From: Catajapyx aquilonaris
Taxonomy: Eukaryota
NCBI GenBank assembly: GCA_000934665.2
Contig: KZ538236.1
Coordinates: forward strand, 62,001-94,624
Reading direction: 5' to 3'
Length of the DNA: 32,624 bases
Position numbers and translations under genes: made by a program. The notes under the pieces were generated by a model. It worked only from the letters and a program-made list of their open reading frames with translations, made no database searches and was not told where the DNA came from. Below, one piece after another: positions 3,112-29,833 of this stretch (its first letter is position 1; each line of letters begins with the position of its first letter).

Positions 3112-4385
3112 CTACCGTGTTTCATCAGGTAACTCTGTAATGCTTCGCCTGGAGAGACGCAGGTACACTTGTGACGGTTTGCTGTGACACATTTGTCTGT
3201 CCAAGTCCTCGATATCTCCACCGCCTTCAATCCTCTGCGATTTGGCCCACTTGTGACATGCCTCGATGGACCTGTTTTGCCGGCATAAGCTCTCAATCTC
3301 GCTTCCTTTGAATTCTGCCTCGACCCATTCCGCCTCAACGAAGGGGCAAGCACCGTCCGCCTGAAGCGTTCTGCAAGAATGGGCCCGATAGTCCCTCCTC
3401 GCACCTTCGAGGCCATACAAATGCCGCACGCTGTACTCGTAACGTCTTCGGCCTGACTTCCAAAGTTCGCCGTAATGACGCTCCCAGAACCGCAGCGATT
3501 CCTCTACGGACACCCCGACTTCCTTCAGGAAAAGCGTGTAATGTATTCTGGTCGCATGCGGCAAGTGCTTCGAGTCTAATAGGGCGCGGTGCCACCTCCT
3601 GGCGCAAGGTGGAAATTGGGTCGAGGCAGAATCAACTTCGCTCGATCTCAGTAACGATAGGTCGTCGTTCGAATAGGTCCGATTGAAGCATGCGATAAGT
3701 TCACTCAACAATGGTTGTAGTCGTGAGCTGGGGCCCGATTCGGACATGAGCCGCTGCGTGTGGGTGGATATGCGATTGAATATGCAAGCGAGAAGCTGCC
3801 GGAGTTGACTACAGCGCAGTGTGGCCATGCCTCGTTGGAGAGCCACCTCTCGTCGGGACACCATGGGCGCCACATGAAAGAAAGGAACTGCTCAGGTTAC
3901 GTATGTACCGAAATGGAGTGCGTACCTGTAATGACTGCGGTGCACTGATTGCATTTCCAGTGCTGGTCTATCCCGAACGCCATGAGGCTCCCGACCACCT
4001 CCTTGAGCCCCAACCGGTCCTGCGCGTCGGCCCGTCTCAGCTGCCGCCTGAGCCCCTTGACGGCCTTGGCAGCCTCCTTCCCCGTCTGGCACCCCAGCCG
4101 GAGGTTAAACAGCCCTTCCTCCTGGTGCGCCACGAAGGCCTCAAAGTCCCTGCTGGTTGATGCGGCCATGGCCAGCGCGAAGTAGGCCGCCCGGTCGAAC
4201 GGGGAGCCATCGATGAGCCAGTCGCAGTGCCGCACCACCCACGGCTCCTCCAGAAGCATGTGGAGGGACTCCAAGGTGGGTCCTCTGGCCGAGAGATGCT
4301 GGAGGACCCTCAGGCGAAGGAGGGTCGCATCCCTCAGGACGTTCAGAGGCAACACAACCGAGGGAGGGGACAGGTAGAAGGCCAT
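3112..4385 (-). CDS. DNA primase large subunit (PRIM2/p58)-like protein, divergent, about 411 aa, 2 exons
   Basis: Exons 4385-3926 and 3887-3112 joined by a 38-nt GT-AG intron give ITVPFFHVAPMVSRREVALQRG, matching the p58 'KVPF..V.DLV..R.V.L..G' segment. N-terminal FYLSPP motif. C-terminal Fe-S domain FPPC...HLPHATRIHYTLFLKEVG...FW...YEYSVRHLYGLEG.RRDY...SC...CPF...AC retains four Cys. Confidence 0.85.
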
Positions 4386-4670
4386 TGCGGGGACTCGGTC
4401 AAGACATGCTCGGTACTGTTCTTACAAGCACCCCATGCATTGCAAGGTGCGGCCAGTCCAGCTGGACATTAGTCACTTCATGGCTTAATTAACCTGTAAT
4501 AGAAAATGTTAAAGAGCAGCATGCAGCTTATAGTGTGCATGGGCGCCTCCATCTTGACACGATACTGCCATCTGGGGACAGAAAAGTGTACACACCAAGG
4601 TACACACTACCGTACAAAGTACTGTATTGTAATACAGCAAGTACAGCAAGTAAAAGATAAGAAAGTCAAG

Positions 4671-4894: not shown

Positions 4895-4947
4895 ATATGC
4901 GCCAAATTGTTTCATACCCCCGGGGTATGAAACAATTTGGCGTATAT
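4895..4947. repeat. Near-perfect palindrome (21-bp perfect arms, 1-nt centre)
   Basis: CGCCAAATTGTTTCATACCCC-C-GGGGTATGAAACAATTTGGCG (4900-4942), extendable by 4 bp after one mismatch. Confidence 0.9.
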
Positions 4948-6310
4948 AGTGCACAAGCTTGTAACATCAAAGCAAATGAACTGTCGAGTGTAGCTGCAAC
5001 TGCGCAACACAAAGGGGTTAAATGAAATCGGCATGTTTAGCTACTAAGGCATCGAGGCCCTCCGTTTATTATAATTAGCCCAGCGACACTGGGCTTACAC
5101 TTCTGTTCATGTCAAGGGTCAAAGAAACATTGCACAGAAACTGATTGGCCGCTTTATAATGTACTTGTACTCCAACACCTGGAGGCTCTCTAAAAAAATC
5201 AAAACTATTGAACTACAACCTTGCTTCGATAGCCTCAGCTTGTTTCTTTTTTTGTTCTTTTTTAAAAAACTGATGGAGTTCTATACTCTTTGCAAGTACT
5301 CTATAATTGTGGGGGCGACGGGGGGCATCAAAAGAAACAATATTTGGGGGTTTACAGTAGTGGTGGTAGGGTCTGGGGGGCAGGGCGGAAAATGAAAACC
5401 TTGCTCTTCACACGTACACAGCTCTCGAGTCCACAGCTCCTCTTGGCTTGTCTCCTTCACTTGAGCGCCAAACGTGCGCACACAGCCCCAAATAACTTCC
5501 GCATGAGCCCATTCATGTCACACTGGCTCCACATTTATCTTAAAAAATGGATTTTTCTTTCTTTTTTTTTTGTCTCAGTCAATCTCTCCTTGTCCGTGAA
5601 TCAAAATGGTCGGCGAATCACTCTCTCTCTCTCCCCTGATTTTGCTTACTCCCATTAACCTGTGGCCTCTTTTTCCCTTTCTACTCTCCCATTTTGGGCC
5701 AAACCGCCAACCTCGGGGAGCCCTGCTAAGACACAAAAAAAGCAGGGGGTTGGCAAGACTCTCGCAGTTTTAACCGACCACAAAGATGTCACTCGATCGC
5801 CGGTGAACGCAACACAATCCTGAAATAGAGCTTTGCAGCTTGTTAAAGTGTGTGGGAGGGACGAGGGAAGGTAGGGGGGGCACACACAGGGCAAGGTCGA
5901 GAAAAGAAGAATCCAGATTACCAAACAAGGACGTTACGTAACATCTAAATTAGAAGGGGGTACGGGACAAACGCACGTGCACATACACAAGCAGAAGGAG
6001 TGTAACGTGAACCCAGGAAATACCTACATCCCAAAAAGTTAAAATCTACTGTGGTGATATATGTTTAAAAAAAAAAAAATTAAGTGTGAAATAAAGGAAC
6101 GTTTAAATTGGGTTGGGGCAGGGTGGAGGATTGGGTGTGTAGGGATAGATGATGCTTTTTTTTTGGGGGGGGGGTGCTATACATAAACATCACCGACCAC
6201 TGGGAAACCGAATCCGCCAGTATGGAAACAGGGGTCGGGACGAGCGTCGCATCCCTCATCCAGAGGTCGGCCAATGCTTGGCGTTTAAGCTGTTGACTGA
6301 GGAGCTGTCC

Positions 6311-9300
6311 TCATCTCCTTCTGGGCGATGAGCTTCCTCTTCCCCTCCTCTTGTTAAGAGGCGGACCAGGCCCTCGTTCCCCGCCGCTCCCTTTCCTCCT
6401 CATGCTCTCCTTTGACCTCTCCGCCTTCTCTATCTCAGCCAGGCGACGCTCCCGCTCCACCATCCGCTGGCGACGCATCTCCTCCTTAACGGCAATCTGC
6501 AGACACGGGACAAACTGGCATCATAATGAATGCTGAACACGTCATCAGCTGTAGCTTACCTGCTCTGGCGTGAGAGGTAGCCAGTAGATGCAGGGAGTGG
6601 TCTTGGTCTTTTGAAATAGGTCATCCAGCAGCTTGGCAGGCTGCTCCTCTTCTCGTTTCCGTAGGTGGCGCTCTGTGGATGGAATAAGGAGATGAAACTA
6701 CAATCAAAACCAGACGCAACCGCAACGGGAGCCAAGGACTAACCAGGTCCATCTGTGGGTCCTCCGATTGGACTCCTGCTCCTCCGTCTCTCCCCGCCAG
6801 GACCACTCACTCGGCCCCTTCTCCTCTGCCTCTCCAGCATCTCCTTCTGGAATTCCTTCTCCCCTGGGGTCTTCTCCCCAATCTTCGCCAGGTCCCACTC
6901 ACGGATTGGCATCTGAAATGTAAAAGCCAGCATCCATACTCATGAGTTCCTGCTGTCACCATCACTTATTTAGACACTACTAAGAAACAACGAGCTAGCC
7001 GTCTTGGTCTAAAGAGAAGAATCTGTAAAAGCTCACCATCCTGTCCCTCTGGTCCGCTAGTGAGTTTGGTCCAAGCCGGGCATCCCCCGAGGCAGAAACC
7101 TTCCTCTTGGGGTCGCCCCCTGCCACTCCGACCCCGCCCGAGTTGACCTCCACCTTGAGAGGCTCAGTCTTCCTTGGTATGTTATCAGCGGAGGCCATAG
7201 CCTTGTTGTACTCAAGCTCTTCCCGAGTGGAGAAGTCCACCTGGAGGGTCTTTGGGTTCGAAACGGGCCAGCGGACTCCGTGGAGGGCATGCCGCGTCTC
7301 CTCTGCTTGCTCCTTGGTCTCGTACTGGAATGCGCATGGAAGATTTTAAGCAACCTGGCCAGGAGCAATGCTTCCAGATTGAACTCACCTCCACGAAGCA
7401 CTTTGACTTGATCTTGTCCATCCAAAATGCACCTTCAACCATGGTTCCCGTGCGTGCCAGGAGCTCCTTCAGCTGGTTGATGGTGAAAGGACGCACCAAG
7501 TTGCTGACAAACAGTACGCTGGAGGCCTTATTCTTTGGCGGACTCGGGGCCTTCTGGAGGTTGCGAGCGTCATCAGCAACTATTGAGATCTTCCTCACCG
7601 TCCTCACTGTAAGCAGGCCAAAAAAAACCACAAGTTGTTACCACTCATTCACACTCATGATCCCTGTAAAGTGAAGAAGATCCTGTACCTTTCCTGTCTT
7701 CACTGAGTCCAGGCCTGGAATCCGTTTCTGAATCAGACCCACCCTTGGACAGTTGCTTTTGTAGCTGGAGTGGCGTTTGAGGCAGCTGCGTGGTCTCATC
7801 CGCGTCCTCACTCTCCCCCAGTTTCATTTCATGGACAGGCACGAGCTTCACGTCTGGAATCAGGCCCTGGAAGGAGAAGGGGGCATCTCATCCTGTTTCT
7901 AACCCCGCTTGCCCAATGCCACGGCAGAATCTTACCTTCAGTGAATCAGTTGAGATGGCAAGGGCGGGCTTCTTGTTGGCCCCGACTTTGCTGGCCCCCC
8001 ACTTTCGTTTCCGCACTGTGGAAGGCTGGGTCACGCCCGTGTATGAATCCTTCCTGATCTTTGGAGCAGGTACTCTCTCCTTCTGTGGGGCCAAAAATTC
8101 TCTCATTATTATTCATCATTTCCTGCTGTCTTGCATTGAACAGACTAAAGATGGACAGGCTTTCCCATCAACGCCACTTACCTTCTGGTCTGTACTATCG
8201 TCATTTTTCTCCTCGGAAATGCTCTTAATGAGCATCACCTTCCTCGGGGTGACAGGAGATGGCGACCTGCTGTAAATATTGAGCACGTAAATAACATGCG
8301 ACATAATATTGATAAAAACAGTGCATACAGTGTAGTTATTGAAAGTTGACGGCTTCAATGAAGTACCAACCTGACGTGAATCTCTTCTTGAGGAGCCCGC
8401 ATCTCCACGATGTCTACTGGGGCGTCTGGACTTGCTGACTTCTCCGGGCTGGCAGACTTCTCTGCACCAGCACTTCTGCTGCTACTGGCGCTTCGGCTTC
8501 TGTCCCTCTGACTCGGCTCCCTAATTGGGCTGTGCCTCACCTCCTCTCGCCTGTTTGGACGCTTTTCAGGGCTCACGCTGCTCTTCTTTTCCTGGCTGCG
8601 ACTTCTCTCTCGCCTTTTCTGTTCCTTACTAGGGCTGCGACTCCTGGTTCGCCTTTTCCTTTCCCTGCTAGGACTGCGACTCTCCTCTCGTCTTTTCTGT
8701 TCCCTACTAGGGCTGCTACTCCTCTCTCGCCTTTTCTGATCCCGGCTAGGGCTGCGGCTTCGGTCTCGCCTCTTCTGTTCCCTAGTAGGACTGCGACTTC
8801 TCTCTCGCCTTTTCTGTTCCCGGCTAAGGCTGCGACTTCGGTCTCGCCTTCTCTGCTCACGACTAGGGCTCCGGCTCCCGTCTGGCCTCCTCTGTCGCCT
8901 AGCAGGGCTCCGACTCCGACTTCTGTCCTTCCTTTGCCTCTGCCTAGGGCTCTGGCTTCTACTTCTCCCACTCCTCCTCCTGTTTCGGGTTGGACTTCGG
9001 CTCAGGCTGCGACTGGGGCTACGTTTTCTCCCAAAAGTCCTCTTGCTCGCTGCTTTAGGAATGCCTCCAGTACGCCTTCCACTTCGACTGCGACTTCGGC
9101 TGCTGCTGCTCCCACTACTGCTGCTACTGCTGCTGCTACTGCGGCTTCTGCTGCGACTCGCACTTCTGCTCGAATCTGAGGAGCTGCTCCTACCACGCTT
9201 CGTCTCCTCCTTCTCACCATCAGGTCTGAAAGGGACACGTAAGCATGAAACACAGCTGGCAATTAACTGAAGTGCATGTATTCATATAAATATGGTTGCC

Positions 9301-9829
9301 ATTAAGTAATTCTCAATACCTAACTAATACACAGTGCCAACCAACCGTCCTACTAACCTTTTAGGAGGTTTGTCCGGGATGCTGCTTGTCTCCTTCACAG
9401 GCTGACTTTCCTTTGGCTCTTCCTTCTCCTTTTCTTTAAACTCTTCCACCTTCTTATTGCTCACCTCCTCATGATCTTTCTTATCCTCCGCCACCTCTCC
9501 TGATTTCGTATCCTCCACCTTCTCAACCACTGGAACCTCTAGCTTTTTATCATCTTCCACTGTCTTCACTTCCTCCTCCTTCACCGTCTCTTCCTCCACT
9601 ACCTTCTCTTCCTCCACTACCTTCTCTTCCTGCACTACCTTCTCCACTTCCACTGCCTTCTCCACCTCCACTTTTTCCTCCGCCTTATCCATCACTTTAT
9701 CCTCTTCCTTTTTCTCGTCCCTTTTTTCTTCTGATCTTGCAGAGCTGCCAAGATCCCCTCTCTTCAGTTTCATCCTCCTTCCTGGCAACGGAGTTCGGCT
9801 GACTTCTGGAGGCTTGACGGTGGTTTCCT

Positions 9830-9860
<31 letters not shown>

Positions 9861-12800
9861 CTCCTTCTCTGGTGGCTCAATTTTTGCCTCTTCCTTCAAG
9901 TAAAAATGAAGAAACATGGTTTGTAATATATTACACAATGAATCTCTATGCAAGCAGAAATGCGACACTAACCTTCTCATTTTCCACTGCCTGCGGCGTC
10001 TCCTCAACTGTAACTTTCAAGTCCTTATCCGGCAGTGACCCATTGCTGGAAGGCTTGGCCTGTTCCTCCTTTTTCTCTTCCTTGACCACTTTATCCTCCA
10101 CCGTCACCTTATCCCCTCCCCCTCCTCCCCCTGCCTCGCCTTCAGACGTCCATTGCCTCTTCAGTCGCACTCTGGTTGGCCTCTTCGGGGCCTCGTCAGT
10201 TTTCCCGTCTCCCCCTCCCGACATCAGCGTCACCAATCCGGCCTTCACCTTCTCTCCTCCTCCTCCTCCCTCTCCCACTATCACCTTCTCCTCTTCCTTT
10301 GCTTTCATGCCTTCCAATGCAGCAGGTGATTTTGATTCCTTTGAAATCAATTCCTCTGAGGATGCTTCTGCCTCCAACACTTTGGGCTGGCAAAAAAAAA
10401 ATATGATAATAATTAATTAAAAGTTATCCTGGATAAAATTGCAATGAATGTAATCAATTCAAGAGCAATAATGTACAGGTACTGCACAGCTGCTGTGCCG
10501 CAGATCTATAAGGTTCGTTTGTTAGCAACACTCTGAAACTTTCCTTTCTTGGAATATACTAGTGAACAAAAGGACAAGCGCAAGCATCAATGCCTGTGAA
10601 AAGCAACAAGTTTGGTGTCGTACATGAGCATGAAGAGCACATATTTTCAGACCCTTTCATTCGCAGCAGGACAAATCTCCGGAGTTGAGAAGGGGATACC
10701 CAGAGGCATTTTGAACTGCGTTGGCAGCTTCTTCTAATTCGATGTTGCCATGGTTCGCTTAATGACAATCAAACCAACATCCCACATCAACAGGGAAAGG
10801 TAGGCTCGTAGTATTATCATAACAATCTTCCATATGATGTTGAATGCAACGCTGTGCACCTCATGCTCTGGCATGTAAATTTTTGTCCCTTCAATTGGCA
10901 TGCGGCCAAAATTTCTTCCTATTTCCCACCCTAAATAGACTCACCCTGACAAATCCCACCTGAATTACTTTCCTTGGTCATGACCTGCTCTTAATCACAC
11001 CTGCACCAAACAATAACTAACACTATGGCATTTGGTTCAAATGCGTTTTACAAATGTTCTCATGTGCATATCAATTTTTGCACAAGAAAAAGAGCCTGAA
11101 ATTTAATTAGAGCACAAGTTCAACACATGGCCGCAATTGTAAAAGCTTTATAATCAGTACAAAATTATGTGCAACAGTCTTCACTACAACCGGAAGCTAA
11201 CTTCATAATCACATTTTCATACTATTCCATGTGTCACGTTTTCTGTGTTGAATTTGCAGCACAAGAGATAACTGGCTTTTCAAGTATCAAAATTAGCCAT
11301 AGTATTTACACCAATTTTGCAACAACAATAAGCATTGCGTGAGCATCGGTAACTGTCGATCAAATGTTGAATTATGCCACAAAATATGTAATTTTAACAT
11401 ACCATATCATTAAGCCTACTCGCAGGCACATGTGGTACTGTTATTATGCAACACTATCAGGCAATTCAAGAACTTGGGTCAGCTACTTTAACTACGTGAC
11501 AAAGAGAATATGGTGCAAGATATGGCGGAGGGATATCTGCCTCTTTTTTTTTGTCACCCAATCATTATCATAGTTCACAAGCGTGGCTGAGGCCAGTCAT
11601 GTTTGCAGGTATGGCCGTACTACACCTTACTGGCATCCGCAATGACAAGGAATGTAACATGCCGTCTTGAGCACTTGAGTCAAGCGTGGAGGAAGACGAC
11701 TCACACTGCTGCTTCTGACTGTAGTACTTAAAATGCTGTGATTTGTTTTGAGGCATAAATGGGGCTGGGGAGCTACGTACAACATGGACAGTGCAGCATG
11801 GAGCACGTCACTTTCTCACATTGAAGCTGACTGCGTTCCTAACACAGCAGCTGGAACGGTATCAGACACACCTGTCACACATGTTGACTCTAACGCAACA
11901 AATTCTGTATTCCTCAAAAGTAAACGGTTTACAGCAATGCAAATAATAATAATTCATCACACAATGTGAATATAAGTACTGCCCTGCCTAGATCAATTTT
12001 GCTGAACAAGCAGTGCAAGGCAATCTTTAACTGATCTTTATCTGGGTGAGCTATATTGACAATAGCCACCCTCATGTTATCTAAGCTTGCAGGAAAGGAC
12101 ATTGAAGCGAAAATGTGTCCTTTTTTATAACATGGATTCACAATAATACACGAGACACCCTGTAAGCTTGAATACATGTGTGCTTATAATGTGTTTAATT
12201 ACCTTATTGGAATGTTATAGTACTTTTGCAGAATGTTACATGAACTCAAGGGATCATGATTACACTGCAATAATTTACTTGAATGCTTATGACCAGCTGT
12301 CAGTGAAAAAATATCTGATTATGGATGGGAAAAAGTTTTAGCTTTTTCAAATGCATTTGCACAATTCTGTTATCATCCCTTCTCCATGCATCTGACCAAT
12401 GCATTAAAGAATTCATACAGGGTGTTCCAGATTTGTGGGTCGCTTTTTGATAACTAATATCACACGATGGCAGTTACCAAAAAGTAACCCACGAATCTGG
12501 AACACCCGGTATACATCCTGCCTGTTGCCCAGGGGCATCCCTCTTTGGAGAAAGTAATTTACACCAAAATTGGAAGGACAAGGTGAACAGCAAATTTTGT
12601 ACGTGTGTTTTTGTTGTAGTCAGCAAGAATTTCTTTACATCCAAAACTGATAGCAGTTTTTACGGTTAGAAGTGTGCTTTTGCTAATGGTATGCAAGTGA
12701 ACCATCCCGGAAACAACTTTATTTACAGAAAAGCACCGGTCTTGCCAACTGAATTTTTTCCCGATTACATCCGCAGCATCTCTCCTGTTACGGTTAAGCT

Positions 12801-15800
12801 TCACTCATTTTAATTACCCCAGATGAATTGCTGCCACTTACATTCCGATCCTTAAACTGCAATTCTACACCCCCTCACCTTCAACAGAACTAGTGAAACT
12901 AGTCAAGATCGCTCTATACTTCAGCAATAAATTCCCAAACACAACAGCAGGGGGGTCAAATCTGATTTGTTCCGCCCAAGCGCAAGACTTTCATCTCCAC
13001 ACTGTAAACCGCAAAACATTAAGGGCTGAATCTTCGACGTATCACGCAAACCTGCGTGAGGGTCTGTAACATCCGCGCAAGGTTTGCGCGATACGTCTAA
13101 GATTCAGCCCTAAAAGCACATCACTGGTGAGTCCGAGGAGTTATTCACTACAGGTAGTCCCTGTACACCTTCCGTCTGGGTCTGTGTACGCAAAAAATGT
13201 AAGTCTCTCACGGAACATCAATTTTTAATGATCTTCCGCAGAAGTTTTCAGATGCAGCACTCCAAATGTTGTTGCGTGCACATTAAAAGAGCATCGCTGG
13301 CGAGTCTCTCATGGAACATCCATTTCTAATGGGGGAGACAGAGTGGCGCCGCGGTAACGCGCGCGCCCACGGATGTTAAGGTCCCGGGCTCGATCCCAGC
13401 CCGGGGACTCCCCCTTCATCTCGTGCAGAGGTCGGTCACCTCTGGCTTCGTCTCGGGTGGTATTTCCTACAGCCTAAACCACCTGGGGGAGCTCACTAAA
13501 AATGGCCACACATCAGATGCACTGCACTTGCACATCCCCTCCTGTCATCCTGCCCGTGGGCCCGGGCGATACGTATAAAGGCTCCAATGTATACAACAAA
13601 TAAAGGTCCATGCGATAAACCCTGATAGGGTGAAAGCATTACCCAACCAATTATTTATTATTATTATTATTATTATTTCTAATGCCCTTGCGTTTTTTGT
13701 TACCGAAAAGCATCGGAAGAACATCAATTTTTAATGATCTTCCGATGCTTTTCGGCAACAAAAAACGCATCGCAAGGGCATGGATGTTCCATGAGAGACT
13801 CGCCAGCGATGCTCTTTTAATGCGCACGCAACAACATTGGAACTTCTACGCCTCCTATTCCGATGCAATAAACACCCATTGCCTGCTTTTTTTTCCCCAT
13901 GTCTGCCTACACTGCTTGTGTATGCATTTCCCATCTGGCCCACCACGGAACACCACACATTTTTGTCCCTCCCCATAGCGGTGCAAAGGAGCCCTAGTGT
14001 TTGCGACACACGTGGACCTTCCGCCCAGGGGCCGCCCCCAGTCTCCCCCGCCCCCTCCTCCTTCCCCCCATTCCATTTGGGAAAAAGAGCCCATCCCTCC
14101 CCCTTCCCCCCGACTTTGGAATATACCTTTCCTAGCAGCGCACCCCCGGCCAGACGCACCGACGATCGGGATCCGAGTCCTTCCAGGCTCCCCCGTTCCT
14201 TTTTGTGCGGGTCAGGCTCGAGATGCACGGCAAATAATTTTCCCTTTTTCTTTTTCCCCCAACGGAGTTTCACTAGTGTGGTTAGCCGGGTTCTAGTTTA
14301 TCGAACGCCGGACTGCCATTGTGAGGAGCGCATGCGCAGTCGGTCTCAAGAGGGGGGGGAGGGAAGGAGGGCAGANGGGCGATCGAAGCGCCGCCGCCGT
14401 CATATTGATTAAACGAATGTGCGCCAAATTCGAACACTAATTAATCGCAATTAGAGAGGCACTTACCTCAGCAGGCTCTTGCGCTCTGTCCGGCATACTC
14501 AGCACCCCTGTCAATCACACACCGGTTAATTACATGTCAATTAGGCGATGAGTGCTTTGTTGTTATTTACCTGATTGGTCCTTTGCCATGGTCAGGTCCT
14601 CCGCCTCGTTTCCGACTGTGTAGGCCACCGATTTGGTCAGGACTTCCTCCGCCACAGGCTGGGTTTCGGACACTGCGGGTGACTGGATCTCCTGCGGTTT
14701 GGGCAGTTGAACCTCCTGCGGCTTGGCGGGTTCCTCTGTCATTTCCGTAGAGTCGGGTGGCTCGTTCCTTTCCGGTCTAGGTGGTTCAGGGTGCGGCTCT
14801 GGCTCTTTCTCAACCTCCTTCGCGAGTACCTCAGATGTGTTTGCAGGCTCTTCTGCTGAGGGTTGTGAACTTTCAGGAGCAGGCGATGGTTCCTCAATCT
14901 GTTCTGTCGTAACTTTCAGGTCCAACTTCGGTGTTTCCAACGTAGTTGCTTCCGATGGCATCGGTTCCTTTTCATGTGGTTTCGCAGGCATGTCAGATGG
15001 CTTCGGCGACACTGCTTTGGGCGTGGCCTCCGACGGTTTTGGCTTTTCTGCCGCTGCTGCAGCTTCAGGCAGTGATTTTTTAGGTGTGTCAGATGGAGTT
15101 GAAACAAGTTCAGTCACTTCAGCAGGTTTGGGCTCTTGCAAAGGTGTGGGTTCTTCCGCAGATGCTGGTGCAGGCAGCACAGGCATAGCCTCTGCCGATT
15201 TAGGCAATATTTCAACACTCTCGACTGTTACCTGTGGCAGCAACGGTGACAGCTTAAGCTTGGGAATTGCTCCCGCCGCTTGCGTTTCAGAAGGTTTGTG
15301 TAACGCTTCTGGTTTTGGCTTCACTTCCAGAGGTGCGGGGACCACCGTCACTTCTGAAAGTTTGGCCACGGATTCAAGCAGTTTGGGGAACATGTCCAAT
15401 GGTTTAGGTGTTACGAGTGATGGGGTAGGTGTCTGTATTTTGGATGTGACTGAATCAGACGGTTCGGGTGTTAGTCCAACGGGTAATTCAGATGCGACTT
15501 GCTTGGGTGCAGACTCCGGAATTTTGCGTATCAATGCTACTGGAGCATTGTCTGATTTTTTGGACACCACCAATTCCACTGGTGTAGCCGTCACTTCGGG
15601 CATCAACAATTCAACAGGCTTAACAGTCACTTCTGGTTTTCTCACCGTCAATTCAACTGGCTTAATCGTTACTCCAGTCTTTCTGGGCGACAATTCAACT
15701 GGCTTAACAGTCACTTCAGGCTGCTTGGATGCCAAGTCAATTGGCTTAATTGTTACTTCGGGATGCTTTGGAGTCAATTCAACTGGCTTACTTATCGCTT

Positions 15801-18434
15801 CAGGAGAGGTGGCCGCCAATTCAACAGACTTGGCGGCAACTTCCGAGACTCTTTCGGCCAGTTCGGGTGACTTTCCTGCTGCCGACGACAACTTGGGTGC
15901 AATCCCAATTTGCGCCTTCTTGGCCATTGCCCCGACCTTCACTTTCTGAACCACCTCCACCCCAGCATCGTCCTGAAAATCAACCCCCTGACTCCTTACC
16001 TCTACTTTCTTCTCTGCCCTTCGCTTTGGGCTTTTCTGCTCTGCCTGCCTGGTGAGTGCGATTTCCAATAAGCTTGTCGACTCATCTTCAGTAGTGACGG
16101 CAGGACCATTCTTGCCCTCTGCCTTACTAGGCCGTCTTGTCCTTGGTGATTCCTCACCTTCTGACGGCTCCTGAGACGCCGAGGAAGACGCGCCCCTCCA
16201 GCTTGACCTTCGCCTTCGTGCCCTTCGCTTAGGCTCAGCGTCATCCCATGAAGGGTCACTATCTTTGCGCGGCGAGGTCTCATCAGCCTCGAGGTCCTCC
16301 CCTACCTCCGAGTCCTGCGACATCGGAGGTTCCAAGTGACGCCTCCGGATTCGTGGGCTGCGTCTGGAGGTGCGATTCTCAAGGACCTCCTTGCTTGGGG
16401 TGGTCTCATCTTCCTCTTGGGTTGTTTCCCCTGCACTTTGTTCTGACTCACGTCTTTGCTCTGAAGGATTAAGTTACATACAGGTTAGCATTAGTGTGGA
16501 AATACAGCGCAGATTATCAGCTTCTACCTTCACAAAAATTAACTGGCCACCTCTCTGGCTTAGACCAAAACAAGACACTGTTGAGATTCATATCCTTATC
16601 CTTACTATTTGAAACCAACATCTTAAGACATGGATATATGCGATATGAAGCATAATTTTTAAGAACAATTATATTACATCATCAGGTAATGACTGGCTCT
16701 TGTTTTCGCCTGAATTATACTCGAGCCTTCTCCAATGTTGTTAAATAATTTTTTAATGCGGCCAGAAAAGAGCTTGCAAAGTAATTCTGGAACAACGCTC
16801 CCAGAATTGCAGTGTTTTTGCAGAGAATATTTTACAACCCTCACCCATGCGTTAAGCCCCTCACATATCATACAAGTGCAATCTTAAATGGTGCGCAAAA
16901 ATGTTAGGCAGCCATGAAAGTTACTCAGACATGAAGTGCAAGGGCAATGAGCACATTGCACTTTTATCACTTAGAAAATATTCGCACCCCACTGACAACG
17001 ATGATAATTTCTCACATATGATCAACGTCTCACGCCATACCTTCGAACTGTTTCTTGGCCTCCCTCTGAACCTGATACAACGCCTGCTGCGACGCCAAGT
17101 ACTCCCTAATGAAGTCATTTTCCTCCGCCAGCGCCGAATCTTGCATCTGCCGATTATTAAAACCCATTTAGTTCAGGCCATCAAAATAAATTAAAAAACC
17201 ACCACTCTGAAAAATACTCACGGCCAGGTTCGGAACATGATCTTCATCTTGCGAACACGCCGCTCGAGACTTCTCCAAATTCAAATACTGCAACGTAAGA
17301 ACATACAATCTCACTAATACTAATACCACCACTATAACCATTATTATAACTATTACCATGACTATCCATGACATTTATATCATATTCATCCCTTTCATTA
17401 ACCTCTGCGTGGCCTGACCATCCACCAGAGTGTCATTTTGTAGGTCATACGAGGGGGACAGGGGCAACCTGTACTCCGCTGGCTACCCCTCTATGGGATT
17501 ATTTTGCCGTGAAGTAACCATGACTATCCAATTATTTATTTTATTTATTTTGACAAGTTTTAATATAGTTCATATTTTGGGGTAGCTTGCGGCTTCCGCC
17601 ATCGCTGACTAACATATGGAAATGTCATGAAGGTGATGATGATGACGATGATCATGACTATTAGTTATTACGAGTACAGGAAGTCACCAGTTTACGAACG
17701 GCGATCTGTACTTACGAACGGGCTCCCAACGGGCTCAGCTGCAGGATAGTTTATAATATTATTCCTTCACTTCTGCGTACATTGAGCGACAACAAGTTGT
17801 ACATAAAAGCTGTACAATAATTGGGAAATTACGTTCTTCATGTATGTAAACAGACACATGTGACTTTAGCGGTTCGTTGGGAGCTGCATTTTTTTTCGCT
17901 GTACACATGCGCTGTATCCTCAGGGATCTGAGTTACGTACAAATCCGGCTTATGGACATTTTCAGCAGCGTAACCCCGTTCGTACACCGGTGACTAGTAT
18001 TAGCATGATTATATTATAACTATTGCTGTAACTATTGTGATTGTAACCATTACGACTGGTGTATTTACAATGTATTGTCATAACGGTTGTGATATTGACA
18101 GTAACAAGTTGATTAGGTGTCCAGCACATGTGCACACCGCGGGTGTCAAAAAGAGAGTGTGTGGCACCCTCCCGGTGCCGCCAGCGACCGAGTGCGAGGT
18201 CCCCCGGGTGCTGGAAAGGAATGAGCCTACGTGTAACGACCGCAATACCGTTTTGAGCCTCTCGACCAGGTCTTTCTTGCTTCCGGACTTGGACTGGCCC
18301 CTCTTCTCCAGCTCTATCTTGAGGTCCACGACCCTGAGGGAGGAGACGGGCCGGCCGTCGATGGTGAGCTCGCCCTGCCCCATCGGGGAAGAGGAGGCGG
18401 AGGAGGCAGCGGCCCCAGAGCTTCTGTCCGCCAT
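6311..18434 (-). CDS. Acn: Acinus (apoptotic chromatin condensation inducer in the nucleus; ASAP/EJC-associated splicing factor), about 1826 aa, 16 exons
   Basis: Exons (minus): 18434-18249, 17287-17222, 17146-17041, 16460-14571, 14507-14467, 10386-9973, 9893-9358, 9225-8371, 8269-8182, 8082-7936, 7866-7689, 7606-7389, 7324-7037, 6912-6744, 6672-6560, 6496-6311; all GT-AG and phase-consistent (5481 nt). SAP domain [31 protein letters not shown] region; RKRKWG...[36 protein letters not shown]...[12 protein letters not shown]...[21 protein letters not shown] motif [22 protein letters not shown]. Confidence 0.93.
8592..8870 (-). repeat. Coding 39-bp tandem repeat (about 7 units) in the Acinus RS region
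   Basis: Plus-strand units such as GGCTGCGACTTCTCTCTCGCCTTTTCTGTTCCCTACTAG recur with 39-nt period; they encode 13-aa units like [13 protein letters not shown]. Confidence 0.85.
12418..12509. mobile_element. 92-bp MITE, Tc1/mariner-type ends
   Basis: TIRs CAGGGTGTTCCAGATTTGTGGGT / ACCCACGAATCTGGAACACCCGG (2 mismatches in 23), flanked by TA on both sides (12416-17, 12510-11). Confidence 0.8.
13023..13110. mobile_element. 88-bp MITE, PIF/Harbinger (Tourist)-type
   Basis: TIRs GGGCTGAATCTTCGACGTATCACGCAAACCT / AGGTTTGCGCGATACGTCTAAGATTCAGCCC (2 mismatches in 31); TAA target duplication at 13020-22 and 13111-13. Confidence 0.82.
13261..13841. repeat. Foldback (long inverted repeat) element interrupted by a SINE
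   Basis: Left arm 13261-13323 plus 13684-13720 is the reverse complement of right arm 13738-13841 (e.g. CATTAAAAGAGCATCGCTGGCGAGTCTCTCATGGAACATCCAT vs ATGGATGTTCCATGAGAGACTCGCCAGCGATGCTCTTTTAATG). Confidence 0.85.
13331..13674 (+). mobile_element. tRNA-derived SINE, full-length copy 2
   Basis: A-box-like GAGTGGCGCCGCGGT, B-box-like GGGCTCGATCCC, (TTA)n tail at about 13650-13675, direct repeat ATTTCTAATG at 13322-13331 and 13675-13684; matches copy 1 along its length. Confidence 0.9.
14328..14434. promoter_or_regulatory. Candidate internal promoter in Acinus intron 5
   Basis: NRF1/Ewg-type palindrome GCGCATGCGC (14328-14337) and TGCGCC-AAA-TTCGAA (14420-14434), resembling the CDE-CHR-like motif of the main promoter, in a CpG-rich stretch. 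No transcript evidence. Confidence 0.4.
15560..15870 (-). repeat. Coding degenerate 42-bp (14-aa) repeat in the large Acinus exon
   Basis: Translation: [75 protein letters not shown]. Confidence 0.85.
17682..17995. mobile_element. Putative MITE of about 314 bp in Acinus intron 1
   Basis: AGTCACCAGTTTACGAACGG (17682-17701) and CCGTTCGTACACCGGTGACT (17976-17995) are inverted repeats with 18/20 identity; target duplication not clear. Confidence 0.55.
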
Positions 18435-18610
18435 TTTCGAACGACTTCCTCTTCTTCTCTCCAGTAGCTGCGAGGAGAGCTTCCCCTTGCTACCAACAGG
18501 CGGCCAGGAGGACAAGGCCTGCCAACCGACACGGGACGCCGCACATTCAGGCACACCAACCCCCCTCCCCCTCACTTAAAAAAACTTAATTAAAGCTTAA
18601 TTAAACGCCC

Positions 18611-20089: not shown

Positions 20090-21301
20090 ATGGCAGACAG
20101 CAGCAAGAAGCTGGAGGAGGCCCTGGAGCACATCAGGACTGCTGAGAAAAGGTCAGGAGGTTAAGCCAGGTCAGGTCGAGCGTAATCAACAAACTGACAT
20201 GTCCGCAGCTTGAAGACGGGGCTGTTGAAATGGAAGTCTGAATTTGGCTTGGCGGCGGATGAGTACAACGCGGCTGCTACGTGCTTCCGCAGCGTCAAGT
20301 CGTACCAGCAGTGTAAGGAGTGTCTGCTCAAAGCGGCCGATTGCTACAGGCAGAACAGGTCGCTCTTCTCCGCAGCCAAGTGAGTATGCAACATGCGTGT
20401 TCAACCGCAGTCATGTAACGCTCCCCCCGTTGCGCTTACAGGTGCTTGGAACAGGCTTGCTTGGTTTGCAAGGACATGAACGACCTGAAGGAGATTGGGA
20501 ATCTGGCCAACCGTGCTTGCCAGATGTACCAGGAGCATGGATCGCCCGACACCGGAGCAATCTCTCTGGACAAATGCGCTAAGATGATCGAGACCCAGTA
20601 CCCCGAGACGGCTCTCCAGCTGTACAAGCGAGCAGCCGACGTTGTTTCAGTACGTTCGCACCCAATATGTACACATGCAGTGTTTAAAAACGGTGCGATA
20701 TTTCAGATTGAAGACAGGCCTCGCCAGGCTGCGGAGTATGTGTGCAAGGTATCCCGGATTCTGGTGAAGCTGCAGATGTACGACCAGGCTGCCGACTCGA
20801 TCCGGCGTGAGATCGGATTGCACCAGACATCCGAGAACCTCCCGTTCATCGGACGACTGACTGTGGCGCTGGTGCTAGTCCAGCTTGCTAGGGGCGACTA
20901 CGTGGCTGCCGAAAAGGCCTTCCGAGAGCTCGGAAACTACTGCGAAGTCGAGGAGGTACATCCGCCTTTTTGATAACACGTTGCGATTCCAACTAATTGT
21001 TGCATCGCAGGTCCAAACGTTGGAGCAGCTGCTGCAAGGGTACGACGAGGAGGATCCGGATCAGGCCAGACGCGCCCTTCACAGCCCGTTTATCCGACAT
21101 ATGGATGTGGAGTATTCCCGGCTGGCTCGTGACCTCCCGCTGCCCGCCGGGATATCGCAACCGCTGAAGCCTTCAGTGCGGGAGAATGCGGCTCCCAGTT
21201 ACGTGTCGCCCAGTGCAGCCGCAAAGGGCCAAGGAGCCGCCGAGGGAGGCCAGCCAGCCGACGGGGGCGACGATGAAGACGAAGATAATGGGCTGTGCTA
21301 G
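20090..21301 (+). CDS. NAPG: gamma-soluble NSF attachment protein (gamma-SNAP), 326 aa, 5 exons
   Basis: Exons 20090-20151, 20209-20379, 20442-20649, 20707-20955, 21011-21301 (981 nt). KLEEALEHIRTAEKSLKTGLLKWK...AADEY..AATCF; EHGSPDTGAISLDKCAKMIE; LEQLLQGYDEED; SPFIRHMDVEYSRLARDL; acidic tail ending GLC*. Confidence 0.95.
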
Positions 21302-22920: not shown

Positions 22921-24166
22921 TCACACAGAACTCGTCTTGGGCAAGCTTCGAGAGCGGAACTCCTCATCAGTCGATCCCTCTTTACTGCCACCCCCTCTTT
23001 CCGCGCTCCCTCCTCCACTACTCCCAGCCCCGTCGTGCTTGTGGTGGTACTGCTGGAAACATGGCACGATACACAGATTGGTCTTGCACTCGGGACAGCA
23101 GTACTTGGTCTTCCGCCTCAGTATTCTCCCGTGGTCGTCGATGGTGTTCCAGCAGAAATTGCAGCCCAGTGCTGGACCTTGTCGCAACACAGGGCAGTGA
23201 CCCGACCTCTGAAGCGACTCTGCTGACTCGGTTGACCTTTGGTGCTGCAAGGTGGGAACCGGTGAGGGTGACGGAGACCGTGCAGGTGCAGGTGAAGGGT
23301 GAGGTACGGTTGTGACAACCACAGAGGACGAAAGGTCCTCCGACTTTGGTCTGATGTGGGCCAGCGGTTTCGGAGTGGTTAAGGTGGTTACAGACGGAGT
23401 TGGGGCTGCAGATGAAGATGGGTTGTCAGCCGAGACCACACGGACCAGTGGGAAGTGCTCGATCACAATAGAGGGGCTGCGCTCTCGCATGGGCGTGTCG
23501 GGACTACTGGTGACACTACTGGTCGTGGCTGGCACAACTCGCACCTGAAGCGGAAGCTTGCTCATTCCCTGCAAGACGAAGTTAATTAACAGTCAGCTAC
23601 GGCCGATTCATTTCCAGCCCATACCTGTGCTAGCTGAAAAGTGGGCTGGGTCTGTGCTAGCTGAATGTGGGGTAACGACGGCTGCGAGTGCTGCCTCTGC
23701 ACCATGGTTGCTCCGGACGCTGACGTGGCTGCGACTACAGAAGCTGCGCTTGAAGGCAGAGGCTGCGACCTCTGCTTCTGCAACGTGGCGGTGTGGGTGG
23801 CCGGAACTCCACTGGTGGGCACAACCAAGTAGGACGGGGATCTCCCTTGACTGGATGAAGGTCCTCCGCTTGTGGTGGTGGTGACAACAACACTGGGGCC
23901 CAAGGGAAGTAAGGGCGGAGGTGTTGGGGTTCGACGGGCAGACATCGGAGGTTCTGAGAGATGTCGTTCGATTCGTGGCGGGGCTGTCAGCAGGTGAGTT
24001 GTTGAAGAAGACGACGGAGAGGACGATGGGGACGAAGGACCGATTGAGAAAGAAGGAGGGTCGTCCAAGGATGAGGTGGTCATGAGAGAGTGGGCCATCT
24101 CGCTCTCTTTCTTGATACGTGGCTGCCGAATCAGGGTGCGGCCTCGCTTCGAACGCAACAAGGAAC
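22921..24166 (-). CDS. BtbVII: BTB gene alternative terminal exons C1 and C2: S/T/P-rich linker plus piggyBac-like cysteine-rich zinc finger (isoform about 675 aa)
   Basis: C1 24166-23625 (acceptor TTCCATGCAG| phase 1, donor CAG|GTATGG), C2 23568-22921. HCPVLRQGPALGCNFCWNTIDDHGRILRRKTKYCCPECKTNLCIVPCFQQYH. C1 has no ATG of its own near the start and fits the common exons' phase. Confidence 0.8.
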
Positions 24167-25299: not shown

Positions 25300-25691
25300 T
25301 CATGAGTTAGAAGCCATCTGCGAGTGGAAGAACCTCCTGAGCTGTTCTTGCGGCAGGTTGGAGTTGACCAACCCCACGTATCTCCAAAGAGTGGACGTCG
25401 GCACCTGGTAGCTCCTTGCCGCCTGCATCACATTGGTCCTTTCCATCCACACCAGCGTTAAAGCCGCAAGCATGTTTCCGCTCAGCTCCCTTCCGTGCAC
25501 CATCAGCTTCATTCCCGAGGACGTAGGGACGAGGCAGGCTTGCGGTGGGACTTGCTTGATTCGGTTGTAGGCCCGCTTTGGTGCGTACGTGCTGGCAGCG
25601 GTCGGCTTGGAGGAGGAGGAGGAGGAACGCCCCTTTGGCAAACGGGCTGGGTCGCGTACCACCCCGCACTGGGTGCTCATTTCCCCCCACC
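25300..25691 (-). CDS. BtbVII: BTB gene alternative terminal exon B: second, divergent Pipsqueak-type HTH (isoform about 409 aa)
   Basis: Acceptor TCCTCCTCCCCACACAG| in phase 1; GWGEMSTQ...SGNMLAALTLVWMERTNVMQAARSYQVPTSTLWRYV fits Psq/HTH pattern M..AL..V......V..AA..Y.VP.STL.RY; GC-rich island in AT-rich DNA. Confidence 0.75.
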
Positions 25692-27467: not shown

Positions 27468-28213
27468 CTAGTTTGAGTAGAGACTAGCCACATCCGAGTA
27501 TGGGAGCAGGACCTCTGAAGCGGATGCCTCTGCCCCTGCCCCTTCCCCACCGCCGGACTCTCCTCCGCCTACCCCTTCGCCCTTAACCTTGGGCACCTCG
27601 GCCACTGCCAGTGAGCTCTCAAGAGCCCTCATAATGTCGTCCAGCCTCGCTCCTCCCCCTCCTCCCCAAACCCCCTGCTGCTGTTGCTGCTGTTGTTGCT
27701 GCTGCTGCGGCTGGACAGGCCCTGCGGTTGCCACACCGGCCTCCTCCCTCCTCCTGATGCTGGCCCTGGTGACGGGATACCCCCTCTTGCGGTACTCCAG
27801 CCACAAGGTGCGGCTGTTGACCCCGAAGATCCTGGCCGCCTTGCAAAACCCAATCCCTCCAGACCTCACCGCTTCCAAGGCGCGAAGGAAATTCTCGTCC
27901 GACAGCGGGTTGGTCCGCTTGCGGCGCTGGGGCTGGGACTGTGGTGCGGGTGGGGTGGAATGAGGGCTTGGGGTTAAGGGAAGGGGCGGCTGTTGCATTG
28001 GGTTGAGGGCAGAGGTCAACTGTGGGGTGGTATCGCTTGTGCCGGTGGATGTGACAGTCACAGTTGAGGTCTGGGATGGATTTGTGGAGGTCGAGGGTGG
28101 GTCGAATTTTAGGTGTTGCAAGTGGTGGTGGTGGTGGTAGTAATCGGACAGCCCGTAGGTGGTGGGGGAGGGGCCCATGCCAGAGTAGCCGGGCCTCACC
28201 AGCCACTGAAACC
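27468..28213 (-). CDS. BtbVII: BTB gene alternative terminal exon A: Pipsqueak-type HTH, poly-His and poly-Gln (isoform about 527 aa)
   Basis: Acceptor TTGCTTTTTATAG| in phase 1; GFQWLVRPGY...RRKRTNPLSDENFLRALEAVRSGGIGFCKAARIFGVNSRTLWLEYRKRGYP; stop at 27468. Confidence 0.85.
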
Positions 28214-28639: not shown

Positions 28640-29833
28640 CTGGGGTTGGACTGGGTGAAGCAGCCGAACCTGCGTTGACCTCCTTGATAGCCGGGGTCTC
28701 TAGGGACGCCTGGATAAAAAAGAAGCAAGCGCAAGGTAAAGAATATGCTTCCACTCCCATTACAAACGCTGCACAAGCCGCAAGAAATAACCAAAGTTTA
28801 ATATGAAGCATGATTACTTCGCCCGATGCTTCTTATCACTCTTTGGTACTCTTAACTAATACACATATTTGTCTTGACACTCACGTTAGGTGTGGTCTTG
28901 TCTTCAGTTGCACTTTCCAGCGACCCATCCCGATGCTCCGAATCTAGACTCCTCTCGTGTGATGTTACCTCCGACCCATCATGAGATACATTTAGAGGTT
29001 CCGCCTTGATTATGAGTGTTGAATTATTCTCCTGCACCTCGCATGAAGTCTCATTGTTGTTGCGTTCTGCGGATTAAGTCAGATTAATTAGTACGTGTGG
29101 CGTACATGTGACATGGTGTCATACCGGCAGAGCTGGACCGACTTCCGGTTGAGGACTTTCTGATCCTCTTTCTAGAGGTGGGTGATCCGCACGGAGAAGG
29201 GCTTCTGCGGCTCCCCTCGACTCCTGACTCCTGTCCGATGGTATCGGAGCGTGCGGAACCCCAAGAGAGCTGGTGTGTCACCGAATCATGGGAAGACTCC
29301 AGGGAGGATCCCTGCCTCTCACTAAGTTTGGATTTCATCACCGGGAGACTTTCCTCAGGAACTTCAGCAAGACCCTTGATCTTCAACATCTCGGCCGTCT
29401 ACAAATGCCATGGGAAATCAAATTATAACGTTACTTCTTTCAATGCTAGGTCGTAACTTACCTTCAAGACATTGCTGAGTTGCTCCTGGGTTACATTGAC
29501 CTCTCCGTAATACATGAAGTCCACCACTGTTTGCAGATCCTTATACTTCACATCCTTGAGAATCACAATCGGATGCTGGCAGGGGTTGATGGCAAATAGG
29601 TTCTGCAAAATGATGTGCGTAAGGACACCGCTTGACAATTAATCAATCACGAGGCCACTGACCTGGAAGTATGAGCTGCAGGCAGAGAGAACGACCTTAT
29701 GCGCCTGGACATGTTTCCCCTCCGCAGCTAAAGTGACGTCCACTAGTGACTTGCTGTTAAGGAGGCTCGCAAACACGGACACAAAGTTGGGCTGGTGGTT
29801 GTTCCACCTCAGGCAGAACTGTTGGCTGGCCAT
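28640..29833 (-). CDS. BtbVII: BTB/POZ (tramtrack-group) transcription factor, common exons; BTB-protein-VII-like
   Basis: Exons 29833-29663, 29602-29462, 29398-29125, 29066-28885, 28709-28640 (838 nt, ends in phase 1 at CAG|GTAAGG). QQFCLRWNNHQPNFVSVFASLL...LVDVTLAAEG...QAHKVVLSACSSYFQNLFAINPCQHPIVILKDV...VDFMYYGEVNV.QEQL..VLKTAEMLKIKGLAE matches my recollection of Drosophila BtbVII. The BTB call is firm; the orthology is from memory. Confidence 0.85.

What the first reader, a model, noticed from the sequence alone, without database searches (positions are those of the whole stretch)
23044..23199. piggyBac-transposase-like cysteine-rich domain captured by a host BTB gene
Seen: H-x-P...CxxC...RRKTKYCCPEC...LCIVPCFQQYH at the end of isoform C, with no DDD catalytic domain, TIRs or TTAA boundaries recognised nearby. 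Known: this spacing is characteristic of the C-terminal cysteine-rich domain of piggyBac/PGBD transposases, which binds transposon ends. Inference: a transposase-capture event gave a BTB factor this finger, so it might bind piggyBac termini (silencing) or TE-derived regulatory sites.
Basis: partly seen in the sequence, partly recalled or inferred. Interest (0 to 1): 0.75.

Follow-up and report, generated by a model that had tools for sequence, protein, structure and literature searches.

The report
Ancient piggyBac finger in BtbVII gene
One of three alternative endings of the arthropod transcription-factor gene BtbVII is a zinc finger most like the DNA-binding finger of piggyBat-type transposases, kept almost unchanged from ostracods and barnacles to fruit flies, which points to an old and unstudied borrowing of a transposon part by a host gene.

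Summary
23044-23199 (minus strand) encodes an intact HC6H zinc finger in the third alternative ending of a BtbVII orthologue (BTB head; endings psq, psq, finger; all junctions GT-AG and in phase). The window holds no transposase core and no TIRs.

Its nearest non-orthologous relatives are piggyBac transposase CRDs of the piggyBat/PGBD4 class (13 of 13 next hits, 40-47% identical, same spacing). The top solved fold is the piggyBat CRD (Z 6.4). It is not the T. ni type, and it stays below the Pfam PF13842 cut-off.

The finger occurs in ostracods, a barnacle, a crab, branchiopods, a springtail and insects including Drosophila. It is under strong purifying selection and more conserved than the BTB itself. 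BTB and finger lie in one ORF in transcript-like contigs of relatives; this species has no RNA run listed.

Capture is well supported, but its direction is inferred. Silencing of transposon ends is unlikely; a fixed host DNA target is more likely.

UniRef already auto-labels the domain; my searches found no paper on it. This scan noted a similar exon in another BTB gene of this genome.

The parts
29663..29833 (-). BtbVII coding exon 1: start codon, TTK motif (FCLRWN), first half of BTB
   Evidence: Pfam BTB E 1e-10; GT donor
29462..29602 (-). coding exon 2: second half of BTB
   Evidence: Pfam BTB E 7e-7; AG/GT; the BTB is 74-81% identical to insect BtbVII records
29125..29398 (-). coding exon 3: end of BTB and linker
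28885..29066 (-). coding exon 4 (linker)
   Evidence: predicted from splice signals and phase; weak tblastn support from the Timema model
28640..28709 (-). last common exon; phase-1 donor shared by the three endings
   Evidence: predicted from splice signals and phase
27468..28213 (-). alternative ending A, psq helix-turn-helix at about 27768-27899 (527-aa isoform)
   Evidence: Pfam HTH_psq E 3e-14; phase-1 acceptor; 61-64% identical to insect orthologues
25300..25691 (-). alternative ending B, divergent psq helix-turn-helix at about 25375-25476 (409-aa isoform)
   Evidence: Pfam HTH_psq E 1e-6; phase-1 acceptor; matches the Timema model, E 9e-9
23625..24166 (-). alternative ending C, first exon: conserved basic motif, then Ser/Pro-rich linker
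   Evidence: phase-1 acceptor; short basic motif conserved in orthologues
22921..23568 (-). alternative ending C, last exon, with the finger and the stop (675-aa isoform)
   Evidence: 56-nt GT-AG intron, phase 0
23044..23199 (-). HC6H cross-brace zinc finger of the piggyBat/PGBD4 CRD type (52 aa)
23110..23118 (-). R28-R29-K30 of the finger; R28 and K30 align with base-reading piggyBat R543 and E545, and sit like T. ni piggyBac R567 and K569 relative to the third Cys
   Evidence: invariant in 142 of 142 distinct 52-aa fingers; alignments; PMC11707139, PMC5861402

Best explanation
The gene is the orthologue of Drosophila BtbVII. Long ago, at or before the split of the sampled pancrustacean lineages, the 3' end of an HC6H-class piggyBac transposase came to serve as an alternative last exon. 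Only the cysteine-rich DNA-binding finger was kept, and the core and transposon ends were lost. Alternative splicing now puts either a psq helix-turn-helix or this finger behind one multimerising TTK-type BTB head. Most likely the BTB replaces the transposase core as the device that brings fingers together in pairs, so isoform C is a sequence-specific factor that reads a fixed host motif, probably an inverted repeat, through R28 and K30, and may bend it. Shown here: the finger, its class, its fold model, its conservation, single copy, in-frame gene model, and joined BTB+finger ORFs in relatives. Inferred: direction transposon to host, the date, splicing in this species, DNA binding, and the palindromic target.
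For: Nearest non-orthologous hits among 1.84 billion representatives are 13 of 13 transposase-type CRDs, E 1.5e-6 to 6.8e-5. All 13 pass the PF13842 cut-off and 4 of 13 also pass DDE_Tnp_1_7. They share the 18-residue spacing and non-ligand residues (D21, G24, R28, Y33, L42, P46, F48), with 40-47% identity over 40 columns; profile-profile 97.9%, E 4e-13. A model built from BtbVII-only sequences (pLDDT 88) has the piggyBat CRD as top fold: Z 6.4, rmsd 2.4 over 54 residues, next Z 4.2, and Foldseek rank 1. All 120 of 120 listed long homologues keep HC6H, and 87 have a BTB start motif. Named carriers include Notodromas, Darwinula, Portunus, Daphnia, aphids, Folsomia, Artemia, Pollicipes, Plodia and Drosophila. 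Mean pS 0.80 against pN 0.12 over 32 distinct DNA sequences. The finger is more conserved than the BTB: 84 v 79% to D. simulans, 77 v 66% to Daphnia, 78 v 65% to Portunus. BTB and finger share one ORF in L017, L024 and L026. All 18 BtbVII-type fingers in the tree fall on one side of a branch (SH-aLRT 99). CRDs of piggyBat and piggyBac bind palindromes as pairs and bend DNA 60 and 40 degrees (PMC11707139, PMC7351741).
Against: The window finger scores 17.8 bits on PF13842, below the cut-off of 24, and a TRASH model scores 19.1. A BtbVII-only profile finds ZNHIT3 (E 0.38) but not piggyBat in PDB sequences. The profile that did find piggyBat (E 2e-5) contained transposases and is circular. Foldseek E is only 0.056, and Z 6.4 is under the level of 8 that the tool calls possibly common. 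The fold is shared with zf-HIT, MYND, MetAP1 and C1 domains that bind proteins or lipids. The tree has no root and a long stem (2.6), so it does not show direction or donor. The His-to-first-Cys loop is 11 residues against 16-17 in 11 of 13 related transposases, and no transposase linker remnant was found upstream. No binding data exist.
Confidence: 0.6

Rival explanations
1. Transposon-derived finger that now binds a protein partner (histone tail, corepressor or peptide motif) rather than DNA.
For: Structural neighbours are peptide-binding MYND, MetAP1 and zf-HIT fingers. The related PiggyMac CRD binds the histone H3 tail weakly (PMC8086355, passage). Invariant surface W17/N18 are absent from the transposases, and the first loop is shortened. 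Extreme conservation fits a conserved protein partner too.
Against: The basic patch R25, R28, R29, K30, K32 is 94-100% conserved and maps on the DNA-reading positions. The exon stands in the same slot as two DNA-binding psq endings.
Confidence: 0.2
2. The finger is an old host domain of the HIT/MYND/C1-like group; the likeness to transposase CRDs is convergence, or the transposons took it from a host gene.
For: zf-HIT matches 38 of 50 BtbVII fingers weakly (best E 0.006). ZNHIT3 is the only zinc finger found in PDB sequences by the BtbVII-only profile. The tree is unrooted.
Against: PF13842 matches 46 of 50 (best E 1.4e-7) and covers about 40 residues, zf-HIT only the last 20. No host finger family appears among the 150 listed phmmer hits. 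Spacing and non-ligand residues are shared with transposases. HC6H is one of two main CRD folds of a transposon family that spans fungi, plants and animals (PMC13461360), whereas every named BtbVII-type record is pancrustacean.
Confidence: 0.12
3. Isoform C is a transposon repressor: it binds piggyBac terminal repeats and blocks or silences them.
For: The genome holds an intact-frame piggyBac transposase with an HC6H finger (L003). R28/K30 match the spacing and identity of T. ni piggyBac R567/K569, which read TGCGT (PMC5861402).
Against: CRD sites differ between elements (piggyBat and piggyBac palindromes are unrelated, PMC11707139), so a repressor should track them; this finger instead is more conserved than its BTB. 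The closest transposases have E at position 30 (13 of 13) and the genome's own has M.
Confidence: 0.08

Closest known systems
Drosophila BtbVII (CG43365; merged from CG11494 and CG14956)
   Same: Orthologue: BTB 79% and finger 84% identical to the D. simulans record P0117. Records named BTB-protein-VII or Btbvii carry the same finger. FlyBase added isoform BtbVII-RF by merging an adjacent gene; it has its own poly(A)-cDNA-supported, most distal 3' end (PMC4528329 text and supplements).
   Different: I did not verify that RF/CG14956 is the finger isoform; it is inferred from its distal position. The papers I opened mention BtbVII only in passing, and none of my searches found a paper on the finger.
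piggyBat transposase CRD (PDB 9C0F) and the HC6H CRDs of PGBD2/3/4-type proteins
   Same: Same His-first cross-brace fold (Z 6.4, rmsd 2.4, 54 residues), same R at the 543 position, same C-terminal C-F-x-x-Y-H helix.
   Different: No DDD core, no TIRs, no upstream minor-groove linker. First loop 11 against 17 residues. K instead of E545. Cys instead of His at the sixth ligand position (piggyBat has Cys2His2 at one site). Fused to BTB as an alternative exon.
Host-transposase fusion genes: CSB-PGBD3, SETMAR, BTB-integrase-zinc ZBTB11 (PMC12062965 passages); KRABINER (recalled)
   Same: A host regulatory domain spliced to a transposon-derived module.
   Different: Those keep most of the transposase or use other domains, and most are lineage-young. 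Here only a 52-residue finger remains, across Pancrustacea.
mod(mdg4) and lola (TTK-BTB genes with alternative DNA-binding endings: FLYWCH, C2H2)
   Same: One TTK-type BTB head with exchangeable 3' DNA-binding exons (PMC11426971).
   Different: Three cis-arranged endings only, and a domain class that the passages read do not list among BTB partner domains (C2H2, HTH/psq, FLYWCH; 'piggyBac' occurs 0 times in that paper's main text).

Membership tests
HC6H piggyBac-family CRD (piggyBat/PGBD4 class, PF13842) | His plus seven Cys/His ligands in H...CxxC...CxxC-x4-C-x3-C-x4-H order | tested here: met
   class definition in PMC13461360 and PMC8086355 passages
HC6H piggyBac-family CRD (piggyBat/PGBD4 class, PF13842) | Score above the Pfam PF13842 gathering cut-off (24 bits) | tested here: inconclusive
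   window finger 17.8 bits; barnacle-type orthologues P0227 and P0229 pass with 32.4 and 28.5; 46 of 50 match at E <= 0.1
HC6H piggyBac-family CRD (piggyBat/PGBD4 class, PF13842) | piggyBat-type cross-brace fold | tested here: met
   predicted model only: top hit 9c0f, Z 6.4, rmsd 2.4, 54 residues; Foldseek rank 1, E 0.056
HC6H piggyBac-family CRD (piggyBat/PGBD4 class, PF13842) | Sequence-specific DNA binding as a pair on a palindrome | not testable with these tools
   R543-equivalent kept, E545-equivalent is K
T. ni piggyBac C5HC2 CRD | CxxC-CxxC-CxxH-CxxC ligand order | tested here: not met
   ligand order in the window differs (motif quoted in PMC8086355)
Active piggyBac-like element | DDD RNase H-like core upstream of the CRD | tested here: not met
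   no match of four transposase queries outside the finger below E 0.024; upstream frame is Ser/Pro-rich host linker
Active piggyBac-like element | TIRs with TTAA duplication; multiple copies | tested here: not met
   no bracketing inverted repeat among the 25 longest of 79; one full match in the genome
BtbVII orthologue (TTK-type BTB) | N-terminal BTB with FxLRWN motif, closest to BtbVII records, with psq endings | tested here: met
   no full reciprocal search against other TTK genes was run
Domesticated or captured transposon module | Single orthologous locus under purifying selection | tested here: met
Domesticated or captured transposon module | Spliced to host exons | tested here: inconclusive
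   met in relatives (one-ORF contigs L017, L024, L026; 87 of 120 records with a BTB start); in this species only canonical in-phase signals
Domesticated or captured transposon module | Nested within transposase phylogeny; absent from outgroup orthologues | tested here: inconclusive
   unrooted 67-column tree; no chelicerate or myriapod among named hits seen, but no direct search of those genomes was possible
zf-HIT / MYND | Family profile over cut-off and short 7-8 residue spacer between the CxxC pairs (spacer recalled) | tested here: not met
   zf-HIT best E 0.006, below cut-off, last 20 residues only; spacer here is 18

The most novel reading that the evidence does not exclude
BtbVII isoform C defines an unrecognised, Pancrustacea-wide sequence-specific DNA-binding family born from a piggyBac finger around the Cambrian. 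The hexameric TTK-BTB presents three finger pairs, so it could bend and bridge palindromic host sites much as a transpososome holds transposon ends. A second CRD-only frame beside C2H2 exons in this genome suggests that arthropod BTB genes recruit this finger repeatedly.
Probability: 0.3. Interest if true: 0.78.

Novelty: new variant of a known kind. Interest (0 to 1): 0.58.

Why it matters
Transposase capture by host regulators is known, but the named cases are mostly vertebrate and keep most of the transposase. This case appears far older than those primate fusions, keeps only the finger, and sits in a D. melanogaster gene that can be tested at once by exon deletion, SELEX and CUT&RUN. It would add a DNA-binding domain class to the arthropod BTB factors. 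It would also give a natural test of what a piggyBat-type finger recognises once freed from its transposon. The claim is limited by the absence of binding data and by the fact that databases already auto-label the domain.

Tried and rejected
RNA evidence: no RNA holder listed for this species; no reads were laid.

Chelicerate/myriapod test: a search from the ostracod finger returned only the two ostracods, and 10 of 10 look-ups gave no organism. The outgroup question stays open.

Single-sequence PDB search gave only ClpX and ZNHIT3 at E 0.6-4. The first fold model used an alignment containing transposases (A1; only 1 of 5 models confident) and was replaced by a BtbVII-only one. The T. ni CRD was not among the 50 structural rows listed in either wide search; PiggyMac 6zop appeared at Z 2.2 only.

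The atlas search gave unnamed clusters and one with 29% PF13842: a lead only. No atlas search excluding PF13842 and no finger-dimer prediction were obtained.

Dropped rows: P0143 and P0241 (repeat-driven phmmer artefacts); fingers of other lengths, left out of the 142-row column count; L048, L051 and L052 (weak, unexplained). A transposase-core match on the opposite strand about 2.6 kb from the finger in L010 was taken as an unrelated insertion, not tested.

Literature, ten searches. None surfaced a paper on this finger; one search was swamped by unrelated hits. Supplementary table S1 of PMC12062965 (TE-domain/host-domain co-occurrences) could not be read and may list this pair. The library lacks most subscription journals.

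Full report
Observation. The minus strand at 23199-23044 encodes a 52-residue finger, H-x11-C-x2-C-x18-C-x2-C-x4-C-x3-C-x4-H. The loose pattern occurs once in the window and never in 200 shuffles. Four transposase queries match the window significantly only at this finger. No TIR-like pair brackets it among the 25 longest of 79 inverted repeats. The genome has one full match.

Gene. Upstream on the same strand lie BTB exons and three alternative endings: psq (E 3e-14), psq (E 1e-6) and the finger. Five common exons end in phase 1, and all three acceptors are phase 1 with GT-AG signals, giving predicted isoforms of 527, 409 and 675 aa. The BTB is 74-81% identical to five insect records and 60-66% to Folsomia, Portunus and Daphnia. 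Records named BTB-protein-VII or Btbvii carry the same finger. A fused Timema model shows the same order: BTB, psq, psq, finger. The gene is therefore a BtbVII orthologue; no full reciprocal test against other TTK genes was run.

Splicing. No RNA run is listed for this species. In relatives, 87 of the 120 listed long homologues (of 242 found) have a BTB start motif, and all 120 have the finger. Three metagenome contigs carry BTB and finger in one uninterrupted ORF (L017, L024, L026), as spliced transcripts would. FlyBase created BtbVII-RF by merging an adjacent gene (PMC4528329, passage). The supplements show CG11494 plus CG14956 and a separate, most distal, poly(A)-supported 3' end for RF. 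That RF is the finger isoform is my inference.

Range and constraint. Named carriers are ostracods (Notodromas, Darwinula), Portunus, Daphnia and aphids, Folsomia, Artemia, Pollicipes and Plodia, and insects from mayflies to Drosophila. These span the main pancrustacean branches, whose split I recall as Cambrian. No chelicerate or myriapod appeared among the named hits seen, but many hits are unnamed or unlisted, so absence is not shown. Against 32 distinct DNA sequences (from 39 of 49 loci), mean pS is 0.80 (saturated) and pN 0.12. Median identity to 141 other distinct fingers is 85%. The finger is more conserved than the BTB in all three pairs compared.

Origin: evidence for. In a word-free search of 1.84 billion representatives (150 of 168 hits listed), rows 1-137 are BtbVII-type fingers or presumed fragments, apart from two repeat artefacts. 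Fifteen of those rows printed no motif (two of them the artefacts); the rest were judged by identity. The next 13 of 13 are transposase-type CRDs: all pass PF13842, 4 also pass the DDE_Tnp_1_7 core, and one is a ZAD fusion. They share the 18-residue spacer and D21, G24, R28, Y33, L42, P46 and F48, with 40-47% identity; hhalign gives 97.9%. A model from BtbVII-only sequences (mean pLDDT 88.4) is closest to the piggyBat CRD (Z 6.4, rmsd 2.4, 54 residues; next MYND Z 4.2; Foldseek rank 1, E 0.056).

Origin: evidence against. The window finger is below the Pfam cut-off, and a TRASH model edges ahead. The BtbVII-only profile finds ZNHIT3 (E 0.38) and not piggyBat. zf-HIT weakly matches 38 of 50 members against 46 of 50 for PF13842. 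The tree puts all 18 BtbVII-type fingers on one side of a long branch, which fits one origin, but it has no root. [quoted passage not shown] I put capture from a transposon at about 0.85.

Mechanism. In piggyBat, two CRDs bind a palindrome, R543 and E545 contact bases, and DNA bends about 60 degrees (PMC11707139, section 9 read). In T. ni piggyBac, R567 and K569 are needed for specific binding to TGCGT (PMC5861402, passages), and a CRD monomer appears insufficient (PMC7351741, passages). In all three proteins these two residues sit 7 and 5 positions before the third Cys. In BtbVII they are R28 and K30, invariant in 142 of 142 fingers, where the 13 transposases have R and E. The two transposase folds differ, so the T. 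ni comparison is by position only. The His-to-Cys loop is 11 residues against 16-17, so part of the piggyBat DNA surface is missing. TTK-type BTBs form hexamers of three dimers (PMC11426971, passages; BtbVII is not named in its main text), and the FxLRWN motif is present here. My reading is that the BTB supplies the pairing that the transposase core once gave, and isoform C reads a fixed host motif (0.6). Rivals are a protein-binding finger (0.2), host origin (0.12) and transposon silencing (0.08). Near-frozen sequence and changed specificity residues argue against tracking transposon ends.

Novelty. Capture of transposase parts by host regulators is known (PMC12062965, passages). UniRef already names BTB-less gene models of this exon 'PiggyBac transposable element-derived protein 4 C-terminal zinc-ribbon domain-containing protein'. 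Ten literature searches found no paper on this finger. The passages of a piggyBac domestication survey that I saw list no BTB fusion ('BTB' 0 times, PMC5381638). An unread supplement of PMC12062965 may list the domain pair. PMC8086355, PMC3950699 and bioRxiv 2025.09.01.673531 were seen as passages only.

Earlier scan note. It describes a piggyBac finger exon in another BTB gene of this genome. I found a CRD-only frame that passes PF13842, lies beside C2H2 exons and has no core within the 10 kb fetched (L053/L061). It has the long 17-residue loop and groups with the transposases, so it is a separate event. No BTB was seen in those 10 kb, and its identity with that note is not established.

Verdict. 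A real, ancient, strongly conserved and apparently unstudied transposase-finger capture in a testable fly gene. New variant of a known kind; interest 0.58.

Noticed in passing
G000:C5302:2614-3042 (L061; L053): A second HC6H finger without transposase core (PF13842 24.6 bits, 17-residue first loop), upstream of C2H2-finger frames at 4940-5326 and 5860-6147; looks like an independent, younger CRD-only exon. No BTB found in the first 10 kb of the contig.
   Followed up: partly
G000:C5146 (L003:4-1632): 542-aa open piggyBac transposase frame with DDE core and HC6H finger in the same genome; Met at the position of piggyBat E545.
   Followed up: partly
proteins P0238, P0236, P0254: Single-contig proteins with other partners: ZAD + C2H2 + BtbVII-type finger (P0238), BtbVII-type finger + THAP (P0236), ZAD + transposase-type finger (P0254). 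Either secondary shuffling of the finger or chimeric assemblies.
   Followed up: no
protein P0223 (Artemia): psq and finger in one predicted protein, so the psq/finger neighbourhood may predate hexapods; may be a fused gene model.
   Followed up: no
L021, L022, L029, L039, L044: Genomic loci with BTB and finger but no psq match between them at E 1e-4, so in some lineages the finger may be the main or only ending.
   Followed up: no
window 23098-23100 (-): Finger position 34 is Cys in this species, where 124 of 142 fingers have His: an extra Cys next to the third ligand.
   Followed up: no
window about 20229-21298 (+): SNAP-family gene (Pfam SNAP E 5e-7; gamma-SNAP label recalled), convergent with BtbVII ending C.
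   Followed up: no
window about 7000-18575 (-): Large gene with SAP domain (E 8e-9), Pro/Glu/Lys-rich repeats, RS-rich exon and RRM-like end; Acinus-like (label recalled).
   Followed up: no
window 3115-4421 (-): DNA primase large subunit frames (Pfam E 4e-30 for 3115-3891) in two long ORFs with little or no intron; possibly a compact or retroposed copy.
   Followed up: no
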